Below, piece after piece: positions 23,039 through 23,543 of a DNA stretch of 64,000 bases. Every line of letters begins with the position of its first letter. The stretch's first letter is position 1. The DNA is from Escherichia coli (GTDB taxonomy: Bacteria > Pseudomonadota > Gammaproteobacteria > Enterobacterales > Enterobacteriaceae): the NCBI RefSeq assembly GCF_003018255.1, contig NZ_CP027440.1; one strand, given 5' to 3'. The position numbers were made by a program, and so were the translations under genes. The notes below the pieces were generated by a model. The model made no database searches and was not told the DNA's origin. It saw nothing but the letters and a program-made list of their open reading frames with translations.

Positions 23039-23246
23039 TGTTCTCTTCTTCAGGTTAAAAAATAAGGCGCAACGAAGATAACAAACCACCGCGTTTAATG
23101 AAATGAGCAGCCTCTCCCTGACGCAAATTTTGCACAAAAAATAGGCTTTAGTGATTTGTTTTTGTTCAAAATCATGCCGAATCCGTGATCGGGGTAAAAA
23201 AAAGGTTGCATGAAAACGCGAGCAGAGTATAGTGCGCATCCACGGA

Positions 23247-23323
23247 CGCGGGGTGGAGCAGCCTGGTAGCTCGTCGGGCTCATAACCCGAAGGTCGTCGG
23301 TTCAAATCCGGCCCCCGCAACCA
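23247..23323 (+). tRNA. metZ: Initiator tRNA-Met (tRNA-fMet), copy 1
   Basis: 77 nt CGCGGGGTGGAGCAGCCTGGTAGCTCGTCGGGCTCATAACCCGAAGGTCGTCGGTTCAAATCCGGCCCCCGCAACCA with CAT anticodon loop (CTCATAA) and encoded CCA. Confidence 0.95.
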
Positions 23324-23356
23324 ATTAAAATTTGATGAAGTAAAGCAGTACGGTGA

Positions 23357-23433
23357 CGCGGGGTGGAGCAGCCTGGTAGCTCGTCGGGCTCATAACCCGA
23401 AGGTCGTCGGTTCAAATCCGGCCCCCGCAACCA
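23357..23433 (+). tRNA. metW: Initiator tRNA-Met (tRNA-fMet), copy 2
   Basis: Identical 77-nt sequence, 33-nt spacer after copy 1. Confidence 0.95.
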
Positions 23434-23466
23434 ATCAAAATTTGATGAAATAAAGCAGTACGGTGA

Positions 23467-23543
23467 CGCGGGGTGGAGCAGCCTGGTAGCTCGTCGGGCT
23501 CATAACCCGAAGGTCGTCGGTTCAAATCCGGCCCCCGCAACCA
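23467..23543 (+). tRNA. metV: Initiator tRNA-Met (tRNA-fMet), copy 3
   Basis: Identical 77-nt sequence, 33-nt spacer after copy 2; its 3' end is part of the direct repeat that marks the accessory insertion. Confidence 0.95.

What the first reader, a model, noticed from the sequence alone, without database searches (positions are those of the whole stretch)
23039..23543. Three identical tandem initiator tRNA-Met genes; ORF track reads an artefactual mltA extension through them
Three perfect 77-nt copies are separated by identical 33-nt spacers (110-bp tandem unit). The minus-strand ORF at 21941-23320 runs antisense through the first tRNA copy only because no stop intervenes; the true mltA start is ATG 23038, before a lipoprotein signal peptide.
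Basis: seen in the sequence. Interest (0 to 1): 0.2.

Follow-up and report, generated by a model that had tools for sequence, protein, structure and literature searches.

The report
E. coli metZWV initiator tRNA operon
This is the long-known metZ-metW-metV operon of Escherichia coli, three identical tandem genes for the initiator methionine tRNA beside mltA; the long ORF running backwards through the first copy is an artefact, so the finding is correct but ordinary.

Summary
The finding holds and describes something already known. The window is E. coli chromosome (csrB to recB). ARAGORN and Rfam both call three tRNA-Met(CAU) genes at 23247-23323, 23357-23433 and 23467-23543 (+). The three copies are identical over 77 nt and identical to K-12 metZ, metW and metV. 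They carry the initiator marks: C1xA72 mismatch, G2:C71/C3:G70, A11:U24, three G:C pairs in the anticodon stem, and G46 (the tRNAfMet1 isoform).

One detail is wrong. The two 33-nt spacers differ at 2 positions (23326/23436 and 23340/23450).

The 459-aa minus-strand ORF 21941..23320 exists. Only residues 95-459 are MltA: RefSeq annotates 21941..23038, and the NCBIfam MltA profile starts at residue 95. The N-terminus has a lipobox (LAAC).

The operon has the K-12 promoter (-35 TTGCAT, -10 TATAGT), with one common natural G>A change, and a terminator hairpin after metV.

Seen in passing: a 41-nt exact direct repeat (last 14 nt of metV plus 27 nt) brackets a 27-kb type VI secretion island. 596 genomes have the matching empty site. 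This metV island is also already described.

Interest is low.

The parts
21941..23038 (-). mltA coding sequence (murein transglycosylase A, 365 aa, lipoprotein). True start is ATG at 23038.
   Evidence: RefSeq annotation of a genome identical here. NCBIfam NF008366 at 681 bits, profile 1-365 = ORF residues 95-458. PDB 2gae/2ae0 matches. One substitution (A110V) relative to K-12.
23039..23320 (-). Artefactual 94-codon 5' extension of the mltA ORF. It starts at a TTG inside metZ and is antisense to 23247-23320 of tRNA copy 1.
   Evidence: the ORF listing. No family or PDB match to residues 1-94. The same antisense peptide, MRGPDLNRRPSGYEPDELPGCSTPR, recurs in the mini-ORFs 23302..23430 and 23412..23570 over copies 2 and 3.
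23206..23233 (+). metZWV promoter: -35 TTGCAT (23206-23211), 16-nt spacer, -10 TATAGT (23228-23233). A G+C-rich stretch (GCGCATCC) follows, and an A8 tract lies just upstream of the -35.
   Evidence: Coordinates. The 208-bp intergenic region differs from K-12 at 3 positions. K-12 promoter mutations at or next to the -10 reduce tRNAfMet1 (PMC3017606). The consensus scan missed it because the -35 matches only 3 of 6.
23247..23323 (+). metZ, initiator tRNA-fMet1, copy 1
23324..23356 (+). Spacer 1 (33 nt), identical to K-12 spacer 1, unstructured
23357..23433 (+). metW, initiator tRNA-fMet1, copy 2
23434..23466 (+). Spacer 2 (33 nt). Differs from spacer 1 at 2 positions and also differs from K-12 spacer 2.
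23467..23543 (+). metV, initiator tRNA-fMet1, copy 3. Its last 14 nt form part of the island direct repeat.
23562..23595 (+). Intrinsic-terminator-like hairpin (AAACCGCAA...TTGCGGTTT) plus a T run, ending the operon. It is not the K-12 terminator sequence.
   Evidence: RNA fold -16.5 kcal/mol, z = -3.4. Divergence from K-12 begins 3 nt after metV. The consensus scan missed it because of a bulge in the stem.
23530..23570 (+). Left copy of a 41-nt exact direct repeat (14 nt of the metV 3' end plus 27 nt). Left boundary of the type VI secretion island.
   Evidence: empty site found
50661..50701 (+). Right copy of the 41-nt direct repeat, followed by its own terminator hairpin. Right boundary of the 27,090-bp type VI secretion island.

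Best explanation
The segment is the Escherichia coli metZ-metW-metV operon. Three identical genes for initiator tRNA-fMet1 are arranged head to tail at a 110-bp period. They are transcribed rightwards from one sigma-70 promoter (-35 at 23206, -10 at 23228) in the 208-bp gap that separates them from the divergently transcribed mltA gene, and transcription ends at a hairpin plus T run at 23562-23595.

Shown here: the gene calls, identity to K-12 metZWV, the initiator identity elements, the conserved promoter sequence, and the terminator-like fold.

Inferred from K-12 literature: the primary transcript is cut into three tRNAs that are charged with methionine, formylated and placed directly in the ribosomal P site. 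The three copies supply most of the cell's initiator tRNA, so gene dosage sets initiator abundance and initiation fidelity. The promoter is down-regulated by ppGpp.

The 459-aa minus-strand ORF is a by-product of mechanical ORF calling. No stop codon happens to lie between the real mltA ATG (23038) and a TTG inside the antisense of metZ. The real MltA is the 365-aa lipoprotein starting at 23038.
For: - ARAGORN calls three tRNA-Met(CAU) genes. Rfam's tRNA model scores 61.4 bits for each.
- The copies are identical to each other and to K-12 metZ/metW/metV, annotated as initiator tRNAs.
- The cloverleaf fold leaves C1 and A72 unpaired.
- Identity elements are C1xA72, A11:U24, anticodon stem TCGGG/CCCGA (G29-31:C39-41) and G46. 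K-12 metY differs only at that position (A). Elongator metT/metU share 42 of 77 nt and have G1:C72, C11:G24 and no 3GC.
- Defining features and operon biology come from PMC5389676 and PMC3017606.
- The same locus, mltA followed by tRNA-Met x3, is annotated in the best-matching genomes listed. The tRNA sequence is present in 5425 of 5426 complete E. coli genomes.
- mltA start: RefSeq 21941..23038, NCBIfam profile position 1 = ORF residue 95, PDB chains from residue 115-116.
Against: Nothing in the sequence argues against it.

Limits: no expression, processing or formylation data exist for this strain. The simple promoter and terminator scans did not flag either signal, so both rest on sequence conservation with K-12 or on folding. 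The terminator differs from K-12's and has not been tested experimentally. The tools here have no initiator-specific tRNA covariance model, so the initiator call rests on identity to K-12 genes and on identity elements.
Confidence: 0.97

Rival explanations
1. The three CAU-anticodon genes are elongator tRNA-Met, or tRNA-Ile2 whose C34 is converted to lysidine, rather than initiators.
For: ARAGORN and Rfam report only 'tRNA-Met (cat)' and 'tRNA'. All three classes share the CAT anticodon.
Against: Direct comparison shows 42/77 identity to K-12 metT/metU. Those genes have a paired G1:C72, C11:G24 and the anticodon stem CATCA/TGATG. ileX is 76 nt with a fully paired acceptor stem. The window genes are 77/77 identical to K-12 metZWV and 76/77 to metY.
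Confidence: 0.01
2. The 459-aa ORF is a real, N-terminally extended MltA translated from the TTG at 23320.
For: The frame is open from 23320 to 21941.
Against: - Residues 1-94 match nothing.
- The extension would have to be transcribed antisense through a strongly expressed tRNA gene and its promoter.
- It would bury the lipoprotein signal peptide and lipobox 94 residues inside the protein.
- RefSeq annotates the 365-aa form in every genome inspected.
- The same antisense peptide appears as dead-end mini-ORFs over copies 2 and 3.
Confidence: 0.01
3. The array is an assembly artefact or a recent private duplication, and the true copy number in this strain is not three.
For: Copy number does vary between genomes. 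The tRNA-spacer-tRNA junction occurs 1 to 6 times per genome. NRG 857C and DLL7555 are annotated with two copies, against three in the other listed genomes, including LF82.
Against: Three copies is the modal state: median 2 junctions per genome, and median 4 initiator genes in total. The two spacers carry distinguishing substitutions, so the copies are separately resolved in the sequence. The genomes that match 22000-25000 at 100% have the same three copies.
Confidence: 0.02

Closest known systems
E. coli K-12 metZWV operon (metZ b2814, metW b2815, metV b2816; tRNAfMet1)
   Same: The three tRNA genes are 77/77 identical, with the same 110-bp period and the same position 208 bp from the divergent mltA. 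The promoter hexamers are the same, spacer 1 is identical, and the upstream region differs at only 3 of 208 nt.
   Different: Spacer 2 differs from K-12's. There is a G>A change at 23224, 4 nt upstream of the -10, shared by 1125 of 5362 genomes. Sequence diverges 3 nt after metV. K-12 has its own terminator and then amiC after 73 bp. Here a different terminator hairpin is followed by about 32.7 kb of island DNA before amiC.
E. coli K-12 metY (tRNAfMet2), upstream of rimP-nusA-infB
   Same: Same initiator tRNA, with 76/77 identity and all initiator identity elements.
   Different: metY has A46 instead of G46 in K-12. It is a single copy at another locus with a different promoter and regulation (PMC3017606).
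metV-associated genomic island carrying a type VI secretion system (PAI-CFT073-metV)
   Same: The island lies immediately 3' of metV, between metV and amiC, and encodes a full T6SS (tssB, C, K, L, hcp, tssH, vgrG, tssM-like, tssA, PAAR, tssF, G, J, E). The literature places one CFT073 T6SS in PAI-CFT073-metV (PMC2660368) and lists metV among the most used tRNA integration sites (PMC7545054).
   Different: No integrase gene is annotated in the island here. I did not compare it gene by gene with CFT073. I did not find the 41-nt repeat boundaries or the empty-site count described in the papers I read.

Membership tests
Bacterial initiator tRNA (tRNAfMet) | CAU anticodon in a canonical cloverleaf | tested here: met
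   ARAGORN reports anticodon cat at position 35. Rfam tRNA scores 61.4 bits. The MFE fold is a cloverleaf.
Bacterial initiator tRNA (tRNAfMet) | [quoted passage not shown] | tested here: met
   Position 1 is C and position 72 is A, both unpaired in the fold. The acceptor strands are GCGGGG/CCCCGC.
Bacterial initiator tRNA (tRNAfMet) | Three consecutive G:C pairs at 29:41, 30:40 and 31:39 in the anticodon stem (PMC5389676) | tested here: met
   Anticodon stem is TCGGG / CCCGA. Elongator metT has CATCA / TGATG.
Bacterial initiator tRNA (tRNAfMet) | A11:U24 in the D stem (elongators have pyrimidine 11 : purine 24). This feature is from established knowledge, not from a paper read here. | tested here: met
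   A11 and T24 in the window tRNA. C11 and G24 in metT.
Bacterial initiator tRNA (tRNAfMet) | Formylated by Fmt and used in the P site for initiation in vivo | not testable with these tools
   Inferred from 100% identity to K-12 tRNAfMet1 genes and from K-12 experiments (PMC3017606).
tRNAfMet1 isoform (metZWV type, as opposed to the metY type of K-12) | G at position 46 (m7G in the mature tRNA) rather than A | tested here: met
   The variable loop is AGGTC here and AGATC in K-12 metY. This is the single difference, at string position 47 = canonical position 46. The definition is in PMC3017606.
metZWV operon | Three tandem copies next to and divergent from mltA, behind the K-12 promoter sequence | tested here: met
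metZWV operon | Co-transcription of the three genes from one promoter, with stringent control | not testable with these tools
   Literature for K-12 only (PMC3017606). No second promoter-like site was found in the spacers.
MltA, murein transglycosylase A (NCBIfam NF008366 equivalog) | Full-length match above the curated cutoff that begins at the proposed start codon | tested here: met
   681.3 bits against a cutoff of 242. Profile positions 1-365 of 366 align to ORF residues 95-458.
MltA, murein transglycosylase A (NCBIfam NF008366 equivalog) | Lipoprotein signal peptide with a lipobox cysteine | tested here: met
   The N-terminus is MKGRWVKYLLMGTVVAMLAAC-SS. Crystallised chains start at that Cys/Ser. 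No signal-peptide predictor was available, so this was read by eye.
tRNA-gene-integrated genomic island (context of metV) | Direct repeats containing the 3' end of the tRNA gene at both island ends | tested here: met
   A 41-nt exact repeat at 23530-23570 and 50661-50701.
tRNA-gene-integrated genomic island (context of metV) | Genomes with the unoccupied site carrying one repeat copy | tested here: met
   A synthetic empty-site junction is covered at 80% or more in 596 genomes, at 100% identity in several. The layout was checked in strain A20.
tRNA-gene-integrated genomic island (context of metV) | Island-encoded integrase next to the tRNA | tested here: not met
   No integrase is annotated between metV and amiC. 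23597-24153 has no ORF of 60 aa or more.

The most novel reading that the evidence does not exclude
Natural E. coli lineages may differ heritably in initiator tRNA dosage, and therefore in start-codon fidelity and cold tolerance. Two variations at this locus could cause this. One is the copy number of the 110-bp unit (1 to 6 junctions per genome, implying arrays of about 2 to 7 copies). The other is the G>A promoter variant at 23224, four bases upstream of the -10, carried by this window and by about a fifth of complete genomes. A laboratory G>A mutation 'just upstream of the -10' strongly lowers this promoter in K-12. The text of that paper does not give its exact position, so I could not tell whether it is the same base.
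Probability: 0.12. Interest if true: 0.3.

Novelty: already known. Interest (0 to 1): 0.05.

Why it matters
The main value is annotation hygiene. The check confirms that the 459-aa ORF should be trimmed to the 365-aa MltA lipoprotein, and that the region it overruns is an essential, highly expressed RNA operon.

The locus matters biologically for two known reasons. metZWV supplies most of the cell's initiator tRNA, and its dosage affects initiation fidelity. The 3' end of metV is a recognised landing site for genomic islands, here a complete type VI secretion system. None of this is new.

Tried and rejected
- The consensus promoter/terminator scan found neither the metZWV promoter (-35 matches only 3 of 6) nor the terminator (bulged stem). 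I located them by comparison with K-12 and by folding.
- I looked for structure in the two spacers. There is none (0 and -0.8 kcal/mol, no better than shuffles).
- I tried to establish whether the natural G>A at 23224 is the published D4 promoter-down mutation. [quoted passage not shown] Its presence in 1125 of 5362 genomes argues against a severe defect.
- I looked for a further tRNA-derived repeat at the amiC end of the island region. None was found: the only other match to the tRNA is at 50661.
- I checked whether the window equals the best-hit genome. It is 100% identical over 22000-25000 but 99.44% over all 64 kb (351 mismatches, 8 gaps), so the source is a related strain, not that one.

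Full report
**What is in the sequence.** Reading 22900-23800 shows three copies of CGCGGGGTGGAGCAGCCTGGTAGCTCGTCGGGCTCATAACCCGAAGGTCGTCGGTTCAAATCCGGCCCCCGCAACCA.
- ARAGORN calls them tRNA-Met (anticodon CAT) at 23247-23323, 23357-23433 and 23467-23543 on the + strand. They are the only tRNAs in the window.
- Rfam's tRNA model matches each copy at 61.4 bits against a gathering score of 29.
- Tandem Repeats Finder gives one array at 23245-23546: period 110, 2.7 copies, 98% matches, score 590.
- A direct comparison shows the three 77-nt genes are identical.
They differ at 23326 T / 23436 C and at 23340 G / 23450 A.

**The ORF.** The ORF listing reports the minus-strand ORF 21941..23320, 459 aa, starting at a TTG inside the antisense of the first tRNA. 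The frame has no stop between 23330 and the ATG at 23038. The same antisense peptide (MRGPDLNRRPSGYEPDELPGCSTPR...) also heads two dead-end mini-ORFs over copies 2 and 3, at 23302..23430 and 23412..23570. This shows it is a property of the tRNA sequence read backwards, not of a gene.

**Where the window comes from.** Megablast of 22000-25000 against 5,426 complete E. coli genomes hits 5,425 of them. Two genomes are 100% identical, and the best-matching genomes listed carry 'mltA | tRNA-Met (x3) | tssB | tssC' under the match.
- The whole window is 99.44% identical to NZ_AP045067.
- Gene order is csrB, syd, queF, ppnN, sdaCB, xni, the fuc operon, rlmM, gcvA, csdAE, tcdA, mltA, three tRNA-Met, a type VI secretion cluster, a PTS/sugar module, amiC, argA, recD, recB.

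**Identity of the tRNAs.** In K-12 MG1655 the homologous genes are metZ (b2814), metW (b2815) and metV (b2816), annotated 'tRNA-initiator Met(CAU)', between mltA and amiC. All three are identical to the window copies.

CAT-anticodon genes can be initiator Met, elongator Met or tRNA-Ile2, so I compared the window sequence with K-12 metY, metT/metU and ileX.
- The window tRNA has C1 opposite A72, both unpaired in the fold.
- It has G2:C71 and C3:G70, A11:U24, and the anticodon stem TCGGG/CCCGA, which gives G:C at 29:41, 30:40 and 31:39.
- These are the features that define bacterial initiator tRNAs (PMC5389676).
- Elongator metT/metU share only 42 of 77 positions and have G1:C72, C11:G24 and the stem CATCA/TGATG.
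- The only difference from K-12 metY is G rather than A at position 46. That is exactly the tRNAfMet1 versus tRNAfMet2 distinction described for K-12 (PMC3017606).
- The genes also encode their own CCA end.

**mltA start.**
- RefSeq annotates mltA at 21941..23038 (365 aa, WP_000678650.1) in two genomes inspected. K-12 has the homologous 365-aa gene b2813, NP_417293.1.
- The NCBIfam equivalog model for murein transglycosylase A (NF008366) scores 681 bits, with profile positions 1-365 aligned to ORF residues 95-458.
- Solved MltA structures (2gae, 2ae0 and others) begin at ORF residue 115-116, which is Cys21/Ser22 of the real protein.
- The real N-terminus MKGRWVKYLLMGTVVAMLAAC|SS has a lipoprotein lipobox. 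The protein differs from K-12 MltA by one residue, A110V.

**How the operon is built.** The 208-bp mltA-metZ gap differs from K-12 at three bases: 23088, 23179 and 23224.
- It contains TTGCAT (23206-23211), a 16-nt spacer and TATAGT (23228-23233). An A8 tract lies just upstream and a G+C-rich stretch sits between the -10 and the tRNA.
- In K-12, point mutations in or just upstream of this -10 sharply lower tRNAfMet1. The operon supplies most of the initiator tRNA, deleting it causes cold sensitivity and permits initiation by non-initiator tRNAs, and ppGpp down-regulates it (PMC3017606).
- The spacers are unstructured.
- Downstream of metV, a hairpin AAACCGCAA...TTGCGGTTT followed by T's (23562-23595) folds at -16.5 kcal/mol, z = -3.4.
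- That co-transcription, RNase processing, aminoacylation and formylation also happen in this strain is inferred from identity with K-12. It is not shown here.
- The simple consensus scan missed both the promoter and the terminator.

**Population context.**
- The tRNA-spacer-tRNA junction is found in 5,194 of 5,426 genomes, 1 to 6 times per genome with a median of 2.
- The tRNA itself is found 1 to 8 times per genome with a median of 4.
- Three tandem copies plus metY is therefore the usual state, with real copy-number variation around it. For example, NRG 857C is annotated with two copies and LF82 with three.
- The window's promoter allele (A at 23224) is shared exactly by 1,125 of 5,362 genomes, so it is a common lineage variant.

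**Beyond the finding: metV as an island junction.**
- Similarity to K-12 stops 3 nt after metV and resumes at 56239, at the end of amiC.
- A 41-nt exact direct repeat (GGCCCCCGCAACCAATTTATTAGAATGCTGACAAACCGCAA) lies at 23530-23570 and again at 50661-50701. It consists of the last 14 nt of metV plus 27 nt.
- Each copy runs into its own terminator hairpin.
- Between the repeats are 27,090 bp at 54% G+C, encoding a complete type VI secretion system.
- To the right, up to amiC, is a 5.5-kb module at 40% G+C. It encodes phosphoglycerate dehydrogenase, a KpsF/GutQ isomerase, MalY/PatB, a PTS EIIC and a PRD regulator.
- I built the predicted empty site (metV, one repeat, then the right-hand flank) as a synthetic sequence. 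It is covered at 80% or more in 596 genomes, several at 100% identity, including E2348/69.
- Strain A20 shows the layout mltA, three tRNA-Met, PTS module, amiC.
- No integrase is annotated in the island.
- This is the known metV island. A CFT073 T6SS is assigned to PAI-CFT073-metV (PMC2660368), and metV is listed among the most used tRNA integration sites (PMC7545054).

**Verdict.** The feature is the textbook metZWV initiator tRNA operon next to mltA. It is already known and of low interest. Its practical use is to trim the ORF call and to mark the RNA genes.

Noticed in passing
window 23530-23570 and 50661-50701: A 41-nt exact direct repeat (last 14 nt of metV plus 27 nt) brackets a 27,090-bp complete type VI secretion island. 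Each repeat leads into its own terminator hairpin. A synthetic empty-site junction is present in 596 complete E. coli genomes. No integrase is annotated.
   Followed up: yes
window 50702-56238: A second accessory module at 40% G+C lies between the right repeat and amiC, and is absent from K-12. It encodes phosphoglycerate dehydrogenase, a KpsF/GutQ isomerase, a MalY/PatB protein, a PTS EIIC and a PRD-domain regulator, all on the minus strand. No repeat was found at its amiC end.
   Followed up: partly
window 23224: A where K-12 has G, four bases upstream of the metZWV -10 hexamer. The exact 71-nt promoter allele is shared by 1125 of 5362 genomes. A laboratory G>A mutation 'just upstream of the -10' is a strong down mutation in K-12, but its exact position could not be read from the text.
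   Followed up: partly
window 23245-23546, compared across E. coli genomes: The array varies in copy number. The tRNA-spacer-tRNA junction occurs 1 to 6 times per genome (median 2) and is absent from 232 genomes. Total initiator tRNA genes range from 1 to 8 (median 4). NRG 857C is annotated with two copies, LF82 with three.
   Followed up: partly
window 23434-23466 vs L004 3575-3607: The tRNA genes are invariant, but spacer 2 differs between this strain and K-12 (substitution and indel differences). Spacer 1 is identical in both.
   Followed up: no
window 23597-24153: A 557-bp non-coding stretch at 30% G+C lies between the metV terminator and tssB. It holds several promoter-like hexamer pairs and is presumably the regulatory region of the secretion cluster.
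   Followed up: no
window 21865-21940: The tcdA-mltA gap is 76 bp here and 238 bp in K-12. K-12 carries an extra 162-bp palindrome-rich, REP-like insert flanked by a duplicated GAGGTTA(T/C)CCCTCACCCT motif.
   Followed up: partly
window 59086-59272: The argA-recD gap is about 190 bp longer than in K-12. It contains a second, 87%-identical copy of a 62-nt K-12 segment, at 59179-59241.
   Followed up: no
window 180-539 (-) and 18718-18923 (+): Rfam finds full-length CsrB (381.7 bits) and GcvB (199 bits) small RNA genes. Neither is in the RefSeq feature table of the matching genome.
   Followed up: no
window 35868-36979 (L002 13077-14188): Directly after the Vgr gene in the secretion island lie a 'peptidoglycan recognition protein family' gene and a small hypothetical gene. 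This arrangement suggests an effector and immunity pair.
   Followed up: no
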